42,420 nucleotides of DNA, taken from IMG/VR virus record IMGVR_UViG_2700989535_000005, positions 1-42,420 of that record; one strand, 5' to 3'. Shown piece by piece: positions 1,859 to 34,821 of this stretch (its first letter is position 1; each line of letters opens with the position of its first letter). The notes beneath the pieces were generated by a model, which searched no databases, had not been told where the DNA came from, and saw nothing but the letters and a program-made list of their open reading frames with translations. A program made the position numbers and the translations under genes. The stretch is from a virus (Duplodnaviria > Heunggongvirae > Uroviricota > Caudoviricetes).

Positions 1859-2161
1859 ACTGTAACCATCATCATCTTCTGGCAGCGCTTCCCTTCTCCC
1901 GTTATCCAGATTAACCGGGTGGTGCTGAGGATGAGTCCGATATCGCTTGATCCTGAATTCCACATCTATAGCAAAGCGGAAGGATGTCTCAATGTCGTGG
2001 ACACACAGTGTTACAGCCACAAATCTATAGCCTAAGAAAGGTTTATTTTGTAATTAAAGAAGATTTTAAAAACCAGATTACTCATTCATATAGACACCAA
2101 TCCCCTACAGTCATAAAATGCCTCTTTTGAATTGCTTTATCTTCATAACAAGAGGTTATTG

Positions 2162-3181
2162 ATGCTTCGCCACTTAACAGGACTCAGATTTATAGCTGCA
2201 TTAATGGTTTATTTATGCCATTTAAATACAGACTATTTTGGTGTTTTTGTAAAAGAAATGTTTTCCCAGGGATTTATTGGCGTTTCCTTTTTCTTTATTT
2301 TATCTGGCTTCATTCTTTCATATTCATATGAAGACAAGCTAAAAAATGAAGTAACAAGTAAAAGACAGTTTATTCTTTTAAGATTGGCAAGAATTGTTCC
2401 AATGCATCTATTATTAGCCATGCCATTTATTTTACTAACCATTCACTTAAAGAACTTTGATTTTTCAAAAACCTTAACAAATATTTTATTAATGCAAAGT
2501 TGGATACCAAAGGAGGATTACTACTTCTCATTAAATGGTGTATCATGGTCTTTGTCTGATGAGCTGTTTTTTTATTTAATGTTTATTCCGTTGATTTATA
2601 CATCAATTACAAAGAAAGTAATCACTGCAATATCAATTATAACTCTACTATTAACTATATATTTTTTAAAAATTATACAAACAGAAGAACTTAATCACTG
2701 GTTATATTATATATTCCCAGTAAGCCGCTTGGTAGAATTTATTTGCGGCATGATTATTTACGCTTGCTGGAAAAACAGCCGACAGCAGACAGTCGACAGC
2801 CTTTTGTTTTTAATTTCACTATTACCTCTGCTAATAGCTATATATTATAGCAACAACATAAATAATAGTCTACGTTATTCGTTATATTATTTACTCCCCA
2901 TGGTAATATTCTTTACTTCATGCATCTATCTAAGAAATGGAGTCATTCATACTATCCTCAGTTCAAAAACCCTAGAACTATTAGGGAAATCATCATTTAT
3001 TTTTTATTTAATTCATCAACCCATTATATTATTTTGCTTTAAAATCTTTGGACATAACCCCGGACCACTCTATTTAATAGCGCTCCTTGTTATAATAACC
3101 ATAGTCTCAATCATACTTTATAAATTAGTTGAGGAGCCTTTAGAGCTGATGCTAAGAAAACGAATTTTAGCAGTAAAATAA
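2162..3181 (+). CDS. Acyltransferase family 3 integral membrane protein (OafA/Oac-like O-acetyltransferase candidate)
   Basis: About ten predicted hydrophobic segments; N-terminal LRHLTGLRFIAALMVYLCH resembles the conserved acyltransferase-3 N-terminus; visibly AT-rich; ATG at 2162 with AAGAGG 6 nt upstream (the track's TTG start at 2132 is probably an over-extension). Confidence 0.75.
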   Translation: MLRHLTGLRFIAALMVYLCHLNTDYFGVFVKEMFSQGFIGVSFFFILSGFILSYSYEDKLKNEVTSKRQFILLRLARIVPMHLLLAMPFILLTIHLKNFDFSKTLTNILLMQSWIPKEDYYFSLNGVSWSLSDELFFYLMFIPLIYTSITKKVITAISIITLLLTIYFLKIIQTEELNHWLYYIFPVSRLVEFICGMIIYACWKNSRQQTVDSLLFLISLLPLLIAIYYSNNINNSLRYSLYYLLPMVIFFTSCIYLRNGVIHTILSSKTLELLGKSSFIFYLIHQPIILFCFKIFGHNPGPLYLIALLVIITIVSIILYKLVEEPLELMLRKRILAVK

Positions 3182-6396: not shown

Positions 6397-6749
6397 TACG
6401 CCTCCGATGTAACAGTCGTTATTCCATAAAGAGTGTCGATTTCAGCGGAAAACATGACACGTCGGGTCGTGGTATCCACCGTCGTATTGAAAGAGAGGAT
6501 TGATTTAACGCCCCGCGTTTCGAGGATGCGCTTACGGATCGCCAGGTTGTAGGTTTCCGGCTTCTGCTTACCGAGTACGGACTGGATCCACGGAGTCCCC
6601 TCGGTGGTGTCGAGAAACCATTGCCCATACCACAATTCGAATCGCGTTTTTACCGCCTGCGCCACGGCCTCCGGTGAGTTAATCAGCCAGGTGTCATCAC
6701 CGCTGCCAAAGGTGTAATCGCCATCGGCGTCTTCACGTCTGTATCGCAT
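6396..6749 (-). CDS. Small baseplate protein (gp25/gpW-like position)
   Basis: 117 aa, translationally coupled between the spike and J-like genes. Confidence 0.45.
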   Translation of the reverse strand: MRYRREDADGDYTFGSGDDTWLINSPEAVAQAVKTRFELWYGQWFLDTTEGTPWIQSVLGKQKPETYNLAIRKRILETRGVKSILSFNTTVDTTTRRVMFSAEIDTLYGITTVTSEA

Positions 6750-7522
6750 CAGTTTACTCCGTCGGTATTGCTTCCACCGCGCTGAACACCACCATGAGTG
6801 TGCGTATCATCGATTGGCTTGCCGTTAGCCTTAACGCTCCCCAAGAACTCAACAGCACCAGTGATTTTTGAAGCCACGCCAGAAACAACAGACCCCACCA
6901 TGCCCCCCATCCAGGTTAACAGGCCATGAATGGTTACTTTCTCAGAAAAATCAGCCAGAGGGGCAACCACATCAAGACCACCCGGAGCGACAATTTTAAT
7001 TTTCCTGGTATCAGGATTAAGCTCAAAATAGGTGCTGCCATCGTCACTACGCAACTGTGTGGCACTGGTATTAATACCGCTAATCTTCCTCGCCTGCGAC
7101 TGGGGGCCTACAATACAAAACGCATCCGATAAATCATGCATTCTGTCATCGACCGGTTCCTGTATTCCGCCGCTCTGCCACCAGAAATCAATACAACGAT
7201 CGGCAAAAACGACAAGACACTCATCCCCGGCTTTAATCGGAAACGTTAGCGTACATCCTCCGCCACGTGGGAATACCACTGGAACATCCACCAGCAATGG
7301 GTAATTTTTGGTAATGCGGTTGCCGTCATTATCCTTTTCAACCGAACGGATAGCAGGCTGCACAACCGCCGTCACCGCATCAGGATCGAATGACTGAATA
7401 ATGCCAGGCAAGGCGACACGGATCTGATTCTTTGTTGTTTCCCGTTCAGATTTGAATGTTTCGGCAAGGTCGCCGCTGCGGGTCTGGTCAGATACTGCCA
7501 TTTGGTAGGCTCCAGAAAGCAA
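6749..7522 (-). CDS. Baseplate spike/assembly protein V-like
   Basis: 257 aa; C-terminal HTHGG motif as recalled for Mu gp45 / P2 gpV-type spikes; gene order. Confidence 0.5.
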   Translation of the reverse strand: MLSGAYQMAVSDQTRSGDLAETFKSERETTKNQIRVALPGIIQSFDPDAVTAVVQPAIRSVEKDNDGNRITKNYPLLVDVPVVFPRGGGCTLTFPIKAGDECLVVFADRCIDFWWQSGGIQEPVDDRMHDLSDAFCIVGPQSQARKISGINTSATQLRSDDGSTYFELNPDTRKIKIVAPGGLDVVAPLADFSEKVTIHGLLTWMGGMVGSVVSGVASKITGAVEFLGSVKANGKPIDDTHTHGGVQRGGSNTDGVN

Positions 7523-7546
7523 AAAACCCGCCGAATGGCGGGTTTT
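7523..7546 (-). terminator. Intrinsic terminator downstream of the two-gene cassette
   Basis: On the minus strand: aaaacccgcc attc ggcgggtttt followed by ttgct; 19 nt after the stop of the 131-aa gene. Confidence 0.7.
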
Positions 7547-7565
7547 GTTAATTCACTGAATGAGT

Positions 7566-7961
7566 TTAAACAGCTTCATCAGTCTTCATTTTTTCCCACT
7601 GAGAAAAAATAGTCTTAACCTCTAAGAGAGATTGCTGTGCCATTGCTTTATCTATTGCACAGCTAGTGAGGTCATAATCTGCTTCATTTCGAGCCAGTCT
7701 CTGTTGCTCAAGTTTGTAAGCCATGGATTTTAGGCTTAATGGATCATATGGCTCCAGTTTGTTTTCACTCTTATTTTTAAGATAAGAGATAAGACTGGAA
7801 TGATGATCCTTCGTATAAGCAGGAAGACTGGTCAGATTCTCTTTTATTTCATGGTAAAGCGCATAATATGCCCGCGAAATAGTATTACGATAACCAACTT
7901 CAGAATCCTCCGCAAAGCAACGCTCCGCTGAAGATAAAAACTCAGAGCTAGTTATAGGCAT
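7566..7961 (-). CDS. Hypothetical protein (131 aa), second gene of the AT-rich cassette; contains an R-x6-H motif (HEPN-like?)
   Basis: ATG preceded by AAGGGTG; start overlaps the stop of the upstream 256-aa gene by 14 nt; visibly AT-rich; motif RAYYALYH near the N-terminus. Confidence 0.6.
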   Translation of the reverse strand: MPITSSEFLSSAERCFAEDSEVGYRNTISRAYYALYHEIKENLTSLPAYTKDHHSSLISYLKNKSENKLEPYDPLSLKSMAYKLEQQRLARNEADYDLTSCAIDKAMAQQSLLEVKTIFSQWEKMKTDEAV

Positions 7962-8718
7962 ATTTACACCCTTTCAAGCTATTTCTTTCAACGGAAAAAC
8001 GTGCAATAAGATTGCAATCATCAAGTAAATCGATTGAACAAATTTCATCTGCAAGTCGCATATTCATTGCAACCACCTGTTCAGGAGATGCATTAACTAC
8101 CTCAACCAGATAAGTCCCACCAGATGCACCGTTGATGTCAGCACGATATTCAGTTGGAGGGAATTCAGCCATGACTCTATGAACAGCAAGAGCAACTTGC
8201 ATGTATTGTTCTGAAGAGCATCCTGACTTTTTGTATGCTTCATCCATATCGTGAATTACCTCCTGCAAGAAGGCTTCTGCGTCATCCCTATGTTCTTCTT
8301 GGGATAACATTTTGCAATGACGTCCAAAATATTCTACGCATTTTGATAGTTTCCCTACCAAATACGCAACGCCACCAGCCCTATAAGTAAACCACTTGGT
8401 TGGATACTTATCAGCTAAAGAATAGATGTAGTAGTCCGATTTTTCGAGTAGAGAAAAACGCTCAAGCAGCTTACAAAAAATCCGCGCAAAGTTAACATCA
8501 GCATGTGGGAGGATAGCTTCAAGCATTTCAATCCCGACACTCACATCACCTTTAGCAATATGAGCCAAAGCTACAAGCGTGTCAGCAGGCGGAGTACGCT
8601 TAGAGCCATACTCCGAGACCACCTCTCGAAAGGTCCAAATATCAAGAGGTTGACCACTATTGATTATCTTAACCAACTGGTCAAAACGCTCTTCCGCTTT
8701 CAGTTTTGGTCTTGCCAC
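7948..8718 (-). CDS. Hypothetical protein (256 aa), first gene of the AT-rich cassette
   Basis: Long ORF in AT-rich DNA; GTG start with a weak ribosome-binding site (start uncertain); no recognisable catalytic motif. Confidence 0.55.
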   Translation of the reverse strand: MARPKLKAEERFDQLVKIINSGQPLDIWTFREVVSEYGSKRTPPADTLVALAHIAKGDVSVGIEMLEAILPHADVNFARIFCKLLERFSLLEKSDYYIYSLADKYPTKWFTYRAGGVAYLVGKLSKCVEYFGRHCKMLSQEEHRDDAEAFLQEVIHDMDEAYKKSGCSSEQYMQVALAVHRVMAEFPPTEYRADINGASGGTYLVEVVNASPEQVVAMNMRLADEICSIDLLDDCNLIARFSVERNSLKGCKYAYN

Positions 8719-8747
8719 AGTACGCTCGCTACTTATCTTTTGGTTGA

Positions 8748-8777
8748 ATTTTATGTTCGCGTATACAGTTTAGTCAA
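8748..8777 (-). promoter_or_regulatory. Candidate sigma70 promoter for the cassette (TTGACT, 18-nt spacer, TAAAAT)
   Basis: On the minus strand: -35 TTGACT (8777..8772) and -10 TAAAAT (8753..8748), about 30 nt upstream of the GTG start. Confidence 0.4.
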
Positions 8778-8805
8778 TCCGAAGCTCGTGCTGTTGAGCC
8801 GTTTC

Positions 8806-8832
8806 GCACAAAATCATCCTTGCAAAAAGGAT
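8806..8832 (-). terminator. Terminator-like hairpin after the secreted-protein gene
   Basis: On the minus strand: catcctt tttgc aaggatg followed by attttgtg. Confidence 0.35.
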
Positions 8833-8838
8833 GGGACT

Positions 8839-9180
8839 TCAACCATCAACCTTTTTACACGGGAAAGATCCGATGATTTTCGGCGCGTCCATGCTGTTCT
8901 GCAGCAGTTGGACATTCAGGAATCGCGTTTCGGTACTAGGGCGACGAATGTATTCAAAGCCGTAGTTGTTACCGTCTTTGGCAGGCATAAGCCCCATGTC
9001 TACTTTCAAACCATTGGTACCCAGTTCGGTGATTTTTTGAGAGGTAACTCTTTCACCGTTGATAGTCGATAACTCGCCCTGGTTTGCAACCATAGTGTAG
9101 CCACCGCATTTAACCGTGAAGCCATCCGCCCACGCGCTGCACGCAGAAAAGACAGCGAACAGAAAAATAATACCCCTCAT
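8839..9180 (-). CDS. Small secreted protein or lipoprotein (113 aa)
   Basis: Classic N-terminal signal peptide MRGIIFLFAVFSACSAWA (possible lipobox FSAC or signal peptidase I site AWA/DG); start 3 nt after the stop of the upstream hub gene. Confidence 0.65.
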   Translation of the reverse strand: MRGIIFLFAVFSACSAWADGFTVKCGGYTMVANQGELSTINGERVTSQKITELGTNGLKVDMGLMPAKDGNNYGFEYIRRPSTETRFLNVQLLQNSMDAPKIIGSFPCKKVDG

Positions 9181-9183
9181 TGC

Positions 9184-10245
9184 TCATCCCCTTTGCAAAG
9201 CCGATTGCGTATACAGATCCGCCGCGCCACGCGCTTCGCACATCATATCCATGTACCACGCCTGGCCCCTTGTGTCGCCAGTGTACATAATCCCGCGCAC
9301 AATATAAACGCCATCCGTTGCGATGCTGGCAGGCTGCGATGTGGTGCCGCTTAGCGTGATATTTCCATCCGTGTTCTGGTCGGTGATCTGACCACCAGCC
9401 ATCGCAATATCGTTGTTCGACAACGCGGTACGATACACTGAAGCCTGATCCAGCTGAATGAGTCCGTTAACCCGGATGTTCGGATTAATAAGCGCGCGGA
9501 CGTTTACGCCGTTACCGATAGTCTGCTGCGGCATGCCAATAAGCCCGGTAGCGCTGTTGAGCACAATCGCTTCATGAACATATTCGTTATTCGCCACCAT
9601 CTGGCGCTGACCATCCACGAATTGCCATGTTGCGCCACATTGCCCGGCTACGTTATCCATTAGATGCCGCGTCATGCCAAAGAGTACCCGCCCCCGGGGG
9701 AATACAGTAGCAGGCATTTCAGGCGTCAGGCCTTCGGTCGCACCTTTGGCTTCGAAGTCTTTCATCAGCGCACGGTTCACATCAGCGACCGTGTAACCGG
9801 CAGCCAGCGTCTGTGAGGTTATACTGGTGGCAAAAGCCAGATCAGTATCTGCTGCCTGAATCAGGACGTAGGAATCAACCGGACTGTCTTTTCCTGTGAC
9901 CGAGTAGCGAATTTCACCGCTGAAAATCAGTCCGTAGTTGCGGCCATCTCTCTGGCCCACGTCCGCCGCGTCAACTTCCCGCACGGTCCCTACGTCGCTT
10001 GCTGACACCTCCGGCGCGATACCGTCGTAACCGGCAATCAGACGCACTTTCGAAAATTCCTGCCCGGTGATTCGGTTCACAGTATCTGCCGAGAGGTTAT
10101 AAATTTTGATAGTCCCTACCCGGGACGCGCTGCTGATGTTGAACCAGTCGATCGTAAAGGTGACTTTGAAATCACTTAGCTCAATTCCCTGACCGTTCCC
10201 GTCCACAAGCTGCAGCTCGAAATGTCTCATCCAGTTCTGTGACAT
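9184..10245 (-). CDS. Putative baseplate hub / tail protein
   Basis: 353 aa, downstream of the tape measure and two small tail genes; assignment by gene order only. Confidence 0.45.
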   Translation of the reverse strand: MSQNWMRHFELQLVDGNGQGIELSDFKVTFTIDWFNISSASRVGTIKIYNLSADTVNRITGQEFSKVRLIAGYDGIAPEVSASDVGTVREVDAADVGQRDGRNYGLIFSGEIRYSVTGKDSPVDSYVLIQAADTDLAFATSITSQTLAAGYTVADVNRALMKDFEAKGATEGLTPEMPATVFPRGRVLFGMTRHLMDNVAGQCGATWQFVDGQRQMVANNEYVHEAIVLNSATGLIGMPQQTIGNGVNVRALINPNIRVNGLIQLDQASVYRTALSNNDIAMAGGQITDQNTDGNITLSGTTSQPASIATDGVYIVRGIMYTGDTRGQAWYMDMMCEARGAADLYTQSALQRG

Positions 10246-34266: not shown

Positions 34267-34821
34267 TTACTTAGATATTGGCCTTGGCTTTATCTCAATA
34301 TTATATGGATCATAGCTGGCAACTAATTCAGTCCAGTAAATATCCTCAATAGGGAATAATATATGCTTCCCGTTCCATCGGGAAAAAGTTTTGTTCAACA
34401 CACCAAGCTCAATCAACTCACTAATGTATGGGAATTGTTTTGATGTAACCACATACTTCCTGCCTTCATTAAGGGCTGCGCACAAAACCATAGATTGCTC
34501 TTCTGTAAGGTTTTGAATTACTGATCGCACTTTATCGTTTTGCATCTTAATGCGTTTTCTTAGCTTAAATCGCTTATATCTGGCGCTGGCAATAGCTGAT
34601 AATCGATGCACATTAATTGCTAGCGAAAATGCAAGAGCAAAGACGAAAACATGCCACACATGAGGAATACCGATTCTCTCATTAACATATTCAGGCCAGT
34701 TATCTGGGCTTAAAAGCAGAAGTCCAACCCAGATAACGATCATATACATGGTTCTCTCCAGAGGTTCATTACTGAACACTCGTCCGAGAATAACGAGTGG
34801 ATCCATTTCTATACTCATCAA
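34267..34821 (-). CDS. sieB: Superinfection exclusion protein B
   Basis: 184-aa membrane protein on the opposite strand to the PL operon, in the lambda sieB position. Confidence 0.7.
   Translation of the reverse strand: MMSIEMDPLVILGRVFSNEPLERTMYMIVIWVGLLLLSPDNWPEYVNERIGIPHVWHVFVFALAFSLAINVHRLSAIASARYKRFKLRKRIKMQNDKVRSVIQNLTEEQSMVLCAALNEGRKYVVTSKQFPYISELIELGVLNKTFSRWNGKHILFPIEDIYWTELVASYDPYNIEIKPRPISK

What the first reader, a model, noticed from the sequence alone, without database searches (positions are those of the whole stretch)
7523..8777. AT-rich two-gene operon embedded in the baseplate gene cluster: candidate undescribed defence or abortive-infection module
Two overlapping minus-strand genes (256 aa, 7948..8718; 131 aa, 7566..7961; 14-nt overlap with its own ribosome-binding site) sit between the baseplate hub and spike genes, where morphogenesis genes are normally contiguous. 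The block is visibly AT-rich (roughly 40% G+C by eye, against more than 50% in the flanking tail genes; not computed). It has its own candidate sigma70 promoter (8777..8748) and its own hairpin terminator (7546..7523). Neither protein resembles a virion component. The 131-aa protein carries an R-x6-H motif (RAYYALYH) reminiscent of HEPN RNase motifs, though its N-terminal position is atypical; the 256-aa protein has no recognisable catalytic or nucleotide-binding motif. A lysogen-expressed insert at this position is the classic signature of a prophage-borne exclusion or toxin system, but I cannot assign it to any named system.
Basis: partly seen in the sequence, partly recalled or inferred. 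Interest (0 to 1): 0.85.

Follow-up and report, generated by a model that had tools for sequence, protein, structure and literature searches.

The report
Mobile TPR–HEPN gene pair in prophage
Two overlapping genes inserted between the baseplate hub and spike genes of an E. coli prophage are a self-contained, mobile cassette (a fast-evolving repeat protein plus a small, highly conserved HEPN-type putative RNase) that looks like an undescribed toxin/anti-phage module, but its function has not been tested.

The parts
8748..8777 (-). Sigma-70 promoter-like site, TTGACT-N18-TAAAAT; the -10 hexamer ends 29 nt upstream of the GTG start of the 256-aa gene
   Evidence: It is a 10/12 match, one of only six in the 42-kb window on both strands. 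Function is not tested, and the site is not conserved in sequence across other alleles.
7948..8718 (-). Gene for the 256-aa partner: a TPR array (about residues 8-185) plus a small C-terminal beta-beta-alpha-beta domain (190-243)
7948..7973 (-). Coupling region: Shine-Dalgarno-like AAGGGTG (7973..7967) and the 14-nt overlap (7961..7948) between the two genes
   Evidence: Overlaps of 1-38 nt occur in 11 of 14 curated loci, and overlap or abutment in most of 79 viral loci (where starts were called mechanically).
7566..7961 (-). Gene for the 131-aa HEPN-T/UPF0332-type HEPN protein, with invariant E21 R25 R30 Y32 Y33 H37 H54 R91 D95 Y96
7517..7546 (-). Intrinsic terminator: a 10-bp G+C-rich stem, 4-nt loop and T-run, lying directly before the spike ribosome-binding site. 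It is the conserved right-hand boundary of the cargo slot
   Evidence: dG -16.6. It is conserved in 8 of 9 relatives carrying six other kinds of cargo.
7502..8838 (.). The variable cargo slot between the 113-aa ORF and the spike gene (1337 nt here; 352-1373 nt in relatives; GC 0.39-0.45)
   Evidence: slot contents.
8839..9180 (-). Left flank: a 113-aa signal-peptide ORF (phrog_3443), kept whatever the cargo in 8 of the 9 slot-bearing relatives compared and truncated to 77 aa in SEN34. Not part of the cassette
9184..10245 (-). Baseplate hub gene (backbone, context only)
6749..7501 (-). Baseplate spike gene (backbone, context only). The ATG at 7501, preceded by GGAG, is taken as the start, as in RefSeq

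Best explanation
The block is a self-contained, horizontally mobile two-gene cassette sitting in a cargo hotspot of a contractile-tail prophage.

Proposed mechanism:
1. A sigma-70-type promoter drives a bicistronic mRNA. The two genes overlap by 14 nt, so they are probably translationally coupled. (The anatomy is shown; expression is inferred.)
2. The downstream 131-aa protein is a minimal HEPN domain of the HEPN-T/UPF0332 type. Its ten invariant residues (nine of them polar) mark it as the enzymatic effector, most likely an RNase-type toxin. The site is non-canonical: R91-x3-D95-Y96 stands where Rx4-6H would be, and H37 and H54 could supply the histidine. (Fold and conservation are shown; activity is inferred.)
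3. The upstream 256-aa protein occupies the 5' position that the MNT antitoxin holds in classical MNT-HEPN pairs. It is a non-enzymatic TPR scaffold with no conserved polar residue, and it evolves much faster than its partner. I infer that it binds the HEPN protein and keeps it inactive.
4. I further infer that it releases or activates the HEPN protein when its TPR surface meets a trigger, for example a protein of a superinfecting phage, or when it is itself lost. The result would be growth arrest or abortive infection that protects the lysogen population or stabilises the element.

The terminator that ends the transcript belongs to the slot and is shared by every cassette found there.
For: HEPN identity:
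- The family profile matches PDB HEPN at 1.8e-6.
- Pfam HEPN matches 7 of 13 members.
- PADLOC HEPN_IX gives a weak hit.

Effector and regulator asymmetry:
- Ten residues are 100% invariant in 56 non-redundant HEPN sequences, against none in 67 TPR partners.
- Median pairwise identity is 0.35 against 0.19, and HEPN is the more conserved partner in 99% of 1,378 locus pairs.

Obligate pairing:
- 79 of 79 assessable viral loci, plus 14 curated loci.
- The partner is always 5', and usually overlapping.

Mobility across unrelated backbones and known hotspots:
- Hub-spike slot.
- Integrase-adjacent.
- Lambdoid Q-lysis region next to HicAB and a methyltransferase.
- The P2 gpA-portal (old/tin) hotspot.
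- Mu-like tape-measure/baseplate junction.
- Siphovirus tail genes, Mor-lysozyme and lambda K-like contexts.
- A MOBQ plasmid and the Gilliamella chromosome.

Not needed for the tail:
- 10 of 306 E. coli carriers of the hub have this allele.
- The same slot holds a YafO toxin pair, a divergent TPR-HEPN allele and other cargo.
- The cassette is AT-rich in every context.

Background: Anantharaman et al. 2013 (PMC3710099) state that HEPN-T often has D in place of H with a conserved H elsewhere. They also state that the 5' gene of HEPN dyads is the antitoxin, and that other HEPN families pair with TPR or Sel1 proteins.
Against: - No experiment bears on toxicity, RNase activity, interaction or phage resistance.
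- The canonical Rx4-6H is absent. HEPN-T domains include non-catalytic members such as sacsin and nucleotidyltransferase substrate-binding domains, so an RNA- or ligand-binding role is possible.
- A 256-aa TPR protein with no DNA-binding domain is atypical for a type II antitoxin.
- The window protein itself does not reach any Pfam, NCBIfam or PADLOC threshold.
- The cassette lies in the same orientation as the late tail operon, so it may also, or instead, be expressed during lytic growth.
- Promoter function is unverified and the promoter is not conserved between alleles.
- Foldseek against the PDB was not significant on its own (E above 0.3).
Confidence: 0.55

Rival explanations
1. The pair is a selfish addiction (toxin-antitoxin) module that stabilises whatever element carries it, whether prophage, plasmid or island. 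It has no specific anti-phage role.
For: It is present on a 10-kb mobilizable plasmid and in a bare chromosomal site. It has TA-like gene order and overlap. A classical YafO TA toxin occupies the same slot in other prophages.
Against: It is strongly enriched in phage hotspots known for defence cargo. The very fast diversification of the TPR partner, including replacement by 20-30% identical alleles in near-identical phages, fits an arms race with an external target better than simple addiction does. The two roles are not mutually exclusive.
Confidence: 0.15
2. The HEPN-T protein is not a toxin. It would be a non-catalytic RNA- or nucleotide-binding or adaptor protein. Together with the TPR protein it would serve the phage itself or remodel host physiology, for example through counter-defence, regulation of host or phage RNA during lytic growth, or lysogenic conversion.
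For: The canonical Rx4-6H motif is absent. HEPN-T includes non-catalytic members. The cassette is co-oriented with the late operon and could be read through from it. TPR proteins are generic protein binders.
Against: An invariant constellation of two Arg, two His, one Asp, one Glu and three Tyr at 35% median identity is more typical of an active site than of a binding surface. The module also lives outside phages and at lysogen-expressed positions next to integrases. Anantharaman 2013 cites a genome-scale screen in which even motif-less HEPN proteins were toxic.
Confidence: 0.2
3. The two proteins are baseplate or tail-assembly accessory components of this phage.
For: Position between the hub and spike genes, on the same strand. 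In Rosenbergiella and Yersinia relatives the pair has diverged about as much as the hub and spike, so it has been inherited together with the tail module in those lineages.
Against: The pair is absent from about 97% of E. coli prophages with this hub, including tails with 98% identical hub or spike proteins. It is replaced there by unrelated cargo. It occurs next to integrases, in the P2 old/tin hotspot, in the Q-lysis region, on a plasmid and in a chromosome. It resembles no virion protein.
Confidence: 0.02

Closest known systems
MNT-HEPN toxin-antitoxin pairs (classical HEPN-T/PF05168 with a minimal nucleotidyltransferase; type VII HepT/MntA)
   Same: A small standalone HEPN protein is encoded as the 3' gene of a tight two-gene dyad. 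A conserved Tyr sits next to the motif Arg (Y96 here). The closest structures are HEPN-T proteins (2hsb, 1ufb, 1wol), and HepT is also recovered.
   Different: The 5' partner is not a nucleotidyltransferase. It is a TPR protein with no conserved catalytic residue and no NTase match, so neutralisation by AMPylation cannot be the mechanism. The motif is R-x3-D-Y rather than R-x4-H-x-Y.
RnlA-RnlB and LsoA-LsoB (E. coli HEPN-toxin type II TA systems that act against phage T4)
   Different: RnlA and LsoA are large multidomain proteins with a canonical HEPN motif. Their gene order is toxin first (from my own knowledge), and their antitoxins are small and unrelated to TPR.
HEPN families predicted to work with TPR or Sel1 partners (LA2681: fused to TPR and in an operon with TPR; AbiU2: operon with a Sel1-repeat protein; C6orf70: TPR fusion), from Anantharaman et al. 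2013, Table 1
   Same: The recurring architecture is a HEPN effector plus a helical-repeat protein, proposed to act in conflict systems.
   Different: Those HEPN families keep Rx4-6H and are different families. The present pair combines the nucleotidyltransferase-associated HEPN-T type with a TPR partner, a combination not listed there. Homology to those families was not tested here.
Single-gene 'HEPN-TPR' from the P4 hotspot (pFR83, Rousset et al. 2022, Table S2B) and the two-gene HEPN system 'ANEX' of DefensePredictor
   Same: These are HEPN-containing candidate or validated defence genes from E. coli mobile-element hotspots.
   Different: pFR83 is one large protein with a canonical RSSFVH motif. 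The ANEX proteins show no similarity to either protein here (BLASTP E=0.91; hhalign probability 0.1%).
Phage morons and prophage cargo hotspots (HK97/lambda morons; P2 old/tin and Z/fun hotspots; Tab and Tai defence morons in late operons)
   Same: Promoter, gene(s) and terminator are inserted between late genes. Composition is AT-rich, and cargo varies between otherwise near-identical phages.
   Different: This particular hub-spike slot, with its conserved terminator boundary, was not found described in the papers searched. The Tab and Tai proteins are unrelated.

Membership tests
HEPN superfamily (HEPN-T / Pfam PF05168 / UPF0332) | HEPN fold: a compact up-and-down helical bundle superposable on solved HEPN domains | tested here: met
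HEPN superfamily (HEPN-T / Pfam PF05168 / UPF0332) | Significant sequence-profile similarity to recognised HEPN proteins | tested here: met
   The family profile A3 matches PDB 9xbd at E=1.8e-6 and 2hsb at E=9e-4. PF05168 matches 7 of 13 members, best 2e-6. The window protein alone does not reach threshold.
HEPN superfamily (HEPN-T / Pfam PF05168 / UPF0332) | Rx4-6H catalytic motif at the canonical position | tested here: not met
The canonical position aligns to R91-N-E-A-D95-Y96. D and Y replace H, the variant that Anantharaman 2013 describes for HEPN-T ('D replaces conserved H... conserved H elsewhere'). H37 and H54 are invariant.
HEPN superfamily (HEPN-T / Pfam PF05168 / UPF0332) | Metal-independent endoribonuclease activity | not testable with these tools
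   Needs biochemistry.
MNT-HEPN / HepT-MntA (type VII) toxin-antitoxin | An adjacent 5' gene encoding a minimal nucleotidyltransferase (pol-beta fold, GS...DxD) | tested here: not met
   The partner is a TPR array plus a small beta-beta-alpha-beta domain. It has no NTase hit in Pfam or the PDB. The GASGG loop is not conserved, and no polar residue is conserved in 67 sequences.
MNT-HEPN / HepT-MntA (type VII) toxin-antitoxin | A conserved tyrosine next to the motif that is AMPylated by the antitoxin | tested here: inconclusive
   Y96 is invariant, and depositors mutated the equivalent Tyr to Phe in PDB 9xbc. No nucleotidyltransferase is present in the module, and modification cannot be tested here.
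Type II-like toxin-antitoxin / abortive-infection dyad | A strictly co-occurring two-gene operon with the putative antitoxin 5' and translational coupling | tested here: met
   79 of 79 assessable viral loci plus 14 curated loci have the partner immediately upstream on the same strand. Most overlap by 1-38 nt.
Type II-like toxin-antitoxin / abortive-infection dyad | Toxicity of one partner neutralised by the other; a phage-resistance phenotype | not testable with these tools
   Needs expression, plaque and growth assays.
Phage moron / cargo-hotspot cassette | Present or absent, or replaced by other genes, between the same two backbone genes in close relatives | tested here: met
   At least eight different cargoes occur between the 113-aa ORF and the spike in relatives with 89-98% identical hub or spike. 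This allele is in 10 of 306 hub-carrying E. coli genomes.
Phage moron / cargo-hotspot cassette | Its own promoter and terminator, and deviant base composition | tested here: met
   A rare 10/12 promoter match. A strong terminator, though it is shared by the slot. GC 0.41 against 0.50-0.53, and GC3 0.32-0.35 against 0.46-0.63. Promoter activity itself is untested.
Named anti-phage systems in PADLOC-DB v2 | A match of the component proteins to the system's models | tested here: not met
   The 256-aa protein has no hit. The 131-aa protein has only a weak HEPN_IX hit (E=0.009, 14 bits).
Baseplate / virion structural proteins | Conserved in all phages sharing the tail module; similarity to structural families | tested here: not met
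   (absent from most carriers). (no structural similarity). (non-tail contexts).

The most novel reading that the evidence does not exclude
The pair would be a minimal two-protein immune system. The hypervariable TPR protein would act as a direct receptor for proteins of invading phages, possibly virion or tail proteins given how often the cassette rides in tail clusters. On binding, it would unleash a HEPN enzyme that uses a non-canonical Arg/Asp-Tyr/His active site. This would be a new, widespread defence family in which a pattern-recognition TPR protein has replaced the MNT antitoxin of classical HEPN modules.
Probability: 0.25. Interest if true: 0.7.

Novelty: new variant of a known kind. 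Interest (0 to 1): 0.55.

Why it matters
If the pair is a functional HEPN toxin or defence module, three things follow:
- It adds a compact (about 1.2 kb), easily testable system to the catalogue of prophage-borne immunity.
- It shows that the HEPN-T domain, long known only as the partner of minimal nucleotidyltransferases and of doubtful catalytic status, can be regulated by a non-enzymatic repeat protein.
- It offers a natural series of highly divergent TPR alleles on near-identical phages, which is useful material for mapping what such sensors recognise.

Independently of function, the hub-spike slot, with its conserved terminator boundary, is a well-defined cargo hotspot in a common family of enterobacterial prophages. 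It could be mined for further accessory genes.

Tried and rejected
1. Direct scans of the two window proteins against Pfam, NCBIfam and PADLOC gave nothing usable. Only family profiles and structure comparison resolved the HEPN identity.
3. I considered that the C-terminal domain of the 256-aa protein, with its GASGG loop, might be a degenerate nucleotidyltransferase (MNT). I rejected this because the loop and all polar residues vary across the family, and there is no NTase match.
4. Alignments to 2hsb and 9xbd place the canonical motif at R91..Y96.
5. I rejected 'own terminator', because the hairpin is a conserved slot boundary.
6. I checked possible identity with published systems:
   - The DefensePredictor accessions are absent, and its ANEX HEPN pair is unrelated. 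Some supplementary files were truncated, so absence is not proof.
   - Rousset's HEPN-TPR and 'Putative HEPN' are different single-gene architectures; sequences were seen only for HEPN-TPR.
   - The Tai and Tab papers mention no HEPN or TPR domains.
   - No paper was found for PDB 9xbd/9xbc, for the RefSeq accessions or for the PHROG ids.
7. The Rfam scan of 7300-9300 found nothing above gathering score. The weak leader-like hits only reflect the terminator hairpin.
8. The C-terminal domain of the 256-aa protein stayed unassigned.
Full report
**1. The observation.**

The window is a temperate-phage genome integrated in E. coli. The 7523-8777 block is 99.8-100% identical to sequences in seven complete E. 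coli genomes, including E2348/69, where both genes are annotated as hypothetical proteins.

They overlap by 14 nt, and a Shine-Dalgarno-like AAGGGTG lies inside the end of the first gene.

They lie between a baseplate hub gene (9184..10245; phrog_196 at 3e-89) and a spike gene (6749..7501; PF18352 at 1e-44, plus the Apex motif).

GC of the block is 0.409, against 0.497 and 0.526 in the flanks. Only 5.5% of same-size windows are as low. Those windows fall in three patches. The other two hold an Acyl_transf_3 membrane protein (2132..3181) and a SieB superinfection-exclusion gene (34267..34821). In this window, then, AT-rich patches mark accessory genes.

The promoter-like site at 8777..8748 is a 10/12 match to consensus. 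It is one of only six such matches in the whole window on both strands, and it ends 29 nt before the GTG. The hairpin at 7546..7523 is a strong intrinsic terminator (10-bp stem, dG -16.6, T-run).

**2. The 131-aa protein.**

Direct library scans were nearly empty: a weak PADLOC HEPN_IX hit at E=0.009, and phrog_5176 of unknown function.

A family alignment that included distant partners (A3) matched solved HEPN proteins: 9xbd at E=1.8e-6 and the UPF0332 protein AF0298 (2hsb) at E=9e-4. Pfam HEPN (PF05168) matched 7 of 13 members. Several homologues are named HEPN or UPF0332 by their sources.

RAYYALYH (R30..H37) lies on helix 2. The canonical Rx4-6H position aligns to R91-N-E-A-D95-Y96. This is the variant that Anantharaman et al. 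[quoted passage not shown]

In 56 non-redundant family members (median pairwise identity 35%), E21, R25, R30, Y32, Y33, H37, H54, R91, D95 and Y96 are all 100% invariant. A constellation like that is typical of an active site.

**3. The 256-aa protein.**

An exhaustive HMMER search found about 60 representative clusters, nearly all 250-260 aa long.

Across 67 non-redundant sequences, no position except the start Met reaches 95% conservation. The best are A223, M218, A114 and L85. The GASGG loop that looked like a possible nucleotide-binding feature is not conserved. The protein is therefore almost certainly non-enzymatic.

It also evolves much faster than its partner. Median identity is 0.19 against 0.35, and HEPN is the more conserved partner in 99% of 1,378 locus pairs.

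**4. The pair is an obligate, mobile unit.**

In 80 viral contigs recovered with the HEPN alignment, 79 have a member of the 256-aa family immediately upstream on the same strand. The 80th is cut by the locus edge. The same holds for 14 individually examined loci, of which 11 have overlapping genes.

The contexts are strikingly diverse:
- The hub-spike slot in Escherichia, Yersinia, Rosenbergiella and others.
- Next to the integrase of P2/186-like and lambda-like prophages.
- Between antiterminator Q and the lysis genes of a lambdoid prophage, beside a methyltransferase and HicAB.
- Between replication gene A and the portal gene of a Vibrio P2-like prophage. This is the old/tin hotspot known to hold defence systems.
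- Between the tape-measure and baseplate genes of Mu-like phages.
- After tail-tube or chaperone genes of siphoviruses, after a lambda K-like gene, and between Mor and a GH108 lysozyme.
- On a 10-kb MOBQ plasmid of Acinetobacter.
- Between frr and a transporter gene in a Gilliamella chromosome.

In every context the pair is more AT-rich than its neighbours.

**5. The hub-spike slot is a cargo hotspot.**

The hub gene occurs in 306 of 5,426 complete E. coli genomes, while this allele of the pair occurs in 10.

Relatives with 89-98% identical hub or spike proteins carry other cargo between the 113-aa ORF and the spike:
- a 170-aa protein with an RNNLFH motif (phage 606R2);
- a 266-aa TPR-like protein without a HEPN gene (Yersinia phage YP3);
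- a 138-aa membrane or secreted protein (Salmonella phage SEN34);
- a DUF4282 protein;
- a DUF2335 protein;
- a 190-aa protein plus a YafO-family toxin (two strains);
- in E. coli A16, a very divergent allele of the same TPR-HEPN module (hhalign E=7e-19 and 8e-15), in a prophage whose hub gene is 98.9% identical in DNA.

Slot length ranges from 352 to 1373 nt, with GC of 0.39-0.45. The terminator hairpin and the spike ribosome-binding site (AACCCGCCnnnnGGCGGGTTTTTTGCTTTCTGGAGCCTAC) are conserved in 8 of 9 relatives whatever the cargo. The terminator is therefore the fixed right-hand border of the slot, not a property of this cassette.

In Rosenbergiella and Yersinia relatives the pair has diverged about as much as the hub and spike (43-57% and 47-77%, against 46-63%). 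So in some lineages it has been inherited vertically with the tail for a long time.

**6. How it most likely works.**

Shown:
- a bicistronic, probably translationally coupled cassette;
- a HEPN-fold protein with an invariant set of polar residues;
- a fast-evolving, non-catalytic TPR partner encoded 5';
- strict co-occurrence;
- residence in phage and plasmid accessory positions.

Inferred: the HEPN protein is the effector, most likely an RNase-type toxin. The TPR protein holds it in check and acts as the sensor or labile antitoxin. A trigger such as a protein from a superinfecting phage, or loss of the partner, would free the HEPN activity. The result would be abortive infection or post-segregational growth arrest.

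This reasoning parallels that used for MNT-HEPN and ParA-HEPN dyads by Anantharaman et al. (the 5' gene is the antitoxin). It also parallels the HEPN toxins RnlA and LsoA, which defend E. coli against T4 (for the RnlA paper; LsoA structural hit).

I give this reading about 0.55. Rivals:
- A purely selfish addiction module: 0.15.
- A non-toxic regulatory, counter-defence or lytic-cycle function of a non-catalytic HEPN-T domain: 0.20.
- A structural role: 0.02, effectively refuted.

**7. Comparison with known systems.**

It works like a HEPN toxin-antitoxin or Abi dyad. It is not a member of MNT-HEPN/HepT-MntA, because the partner is not a nucleotidyltransferase. It is not RnlAB/LsoAB either.

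It matches no PADLOC v2 system, Pfam family (other than the HEPN domain at family level) or NCBIfam model.

HEPN plus TPR or Sel1 pairings are known as predictions for other HEPN families: LA2681, AbiU2 and C6orf70. Rousset et al. tested a single-gene HEPN-TPR from the P4 hotspot. DefensePredictor's two-gene HEPN system ANEX is unrelated.

I found no paper describing this pair, though the literature tools cover only open-access text.

**8. Verdict.**

There are three corrections: an extra ORF in the gap, the motif assignment, and ownership of the terminator.

It is a new variant of a known kind: a HEPN effector with a new class of partner, in a newly delineated phage cargo slot. Interest is moderate (0.55). 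The comparative evidence is unusually clean and the system is small and testable. But HEPN-based two-gene candidates in prophage hotspots are no longer surprising, and the function is not demonstrated.

Noticed in passing
window 2132..3181 (+), with a promoter-like site starting at 2091: A 349-aa multi-pass membrane protein of the Acyl_transf_3 family (Pfam E=2e-30) lies in the most AT-rich part of the window (GC 0.28-0.31), just beyond the tail-fibre gene. It resembles phage O-antigen acyltransferases used for serotype conversion, and is probably another lysogen-expressed moron.
   Followed up: partly
window 34267..34821 (-): The third AT-rich patch (about 34.2-36.1 kb) contains a SieB superinfection-exclusion gene (Pfam PF14163, E=1e-29). 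It lies between a KilA-N protein gene and a RecT-family recombinase gene. So the prophage already carries one recognised abortive or exclusion gene in addition to the pair studied.
   Followed up: partly
window 8839..9180 (-): A 113-aa ORF with a signal peptide (MRGIIFLFAVFSACSAWA|DG), phrog_3443, function unknown. It is kept directly after the hub gene in relatives whatever cargo follows. It diverges faster (28-35% identity) than the hub (47-62%) and is truncated to 77 aa in phage SEN34. A weak terminator-like hairpin follows it (8833..8815). Its role is unknown; a periplasmic exclusion factor or a tail accessory protein are both possible.
   Followed up: partly
L001 2363..2875 (-) (Escherichia phage vB_EcoM-606R2): The cargo in the same slot is a 170-aa protein containing RNNLFH, a canonical Rx4H HEPN-type motif. 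It has no hit in Pfam, PADLOC, NCBIfam or PDB sequences. It may be a second, unrelated HEPN-like cargo of this hotspot.
   Followed up: partly
L002 2430..3230 (-) (Yersinia phage YP3): A 266-aa TPR-like cargo in the same slot aligns colinearly with the 256-aa family over 224 columns, but only weakly (hhalign E=3e-4, probability 40%). No HEPN gene follows it. It could be an orphan partner, for example an anti-toxin used as counter-defence, or a chance resemblance between TPR proteins.
   Followed up: partly
L026 1697..2687 (-) and L028 1484..2474 (-) (E. coli EC17CM13, APEC37): The same slot holds a 190-aa protein followed by a YafO-family type II toxin (Pfam E=4e-17). This is a recognised toxin family with an unrecognised upstream partner, in the same geometry as the TPR-HEPN pair.
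   Followed up: partly
L031 3553..3896 (Klebsiella phage ST405-OXA48phi1.3): The HEPN homologue (46% identical by tblastn over residues 1-126) is annotated as two short ORFs behind a 245-aa gene. This could be a frameshifted or decayed copy, or an annotation artefact.
   Followed up: no
PDB entries 9xbd / 9xbc (closest solved relatives of the 131-aa family): The two deposited sequences differ by Tyr to Phe at the residue that aligns with the invariant Y96 (RNRSDYDL against RNRSDFDL). Someone has evidently probed this tyrosine experimentally. No associated paper was found in the library.
   Followed up: partly
window 7517..7546 and the homologous site in L001, L003, L024-L028: A near-identical terminator plus spike ribosome-binding site is kept across prophages with different cargo. 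The essential downstream baseplate genes must therefore be transcribed through, or re-initiated after, a strong terminator. That implies antitermination or an unrecognised late promoter in this phage family.
   Followed up: no
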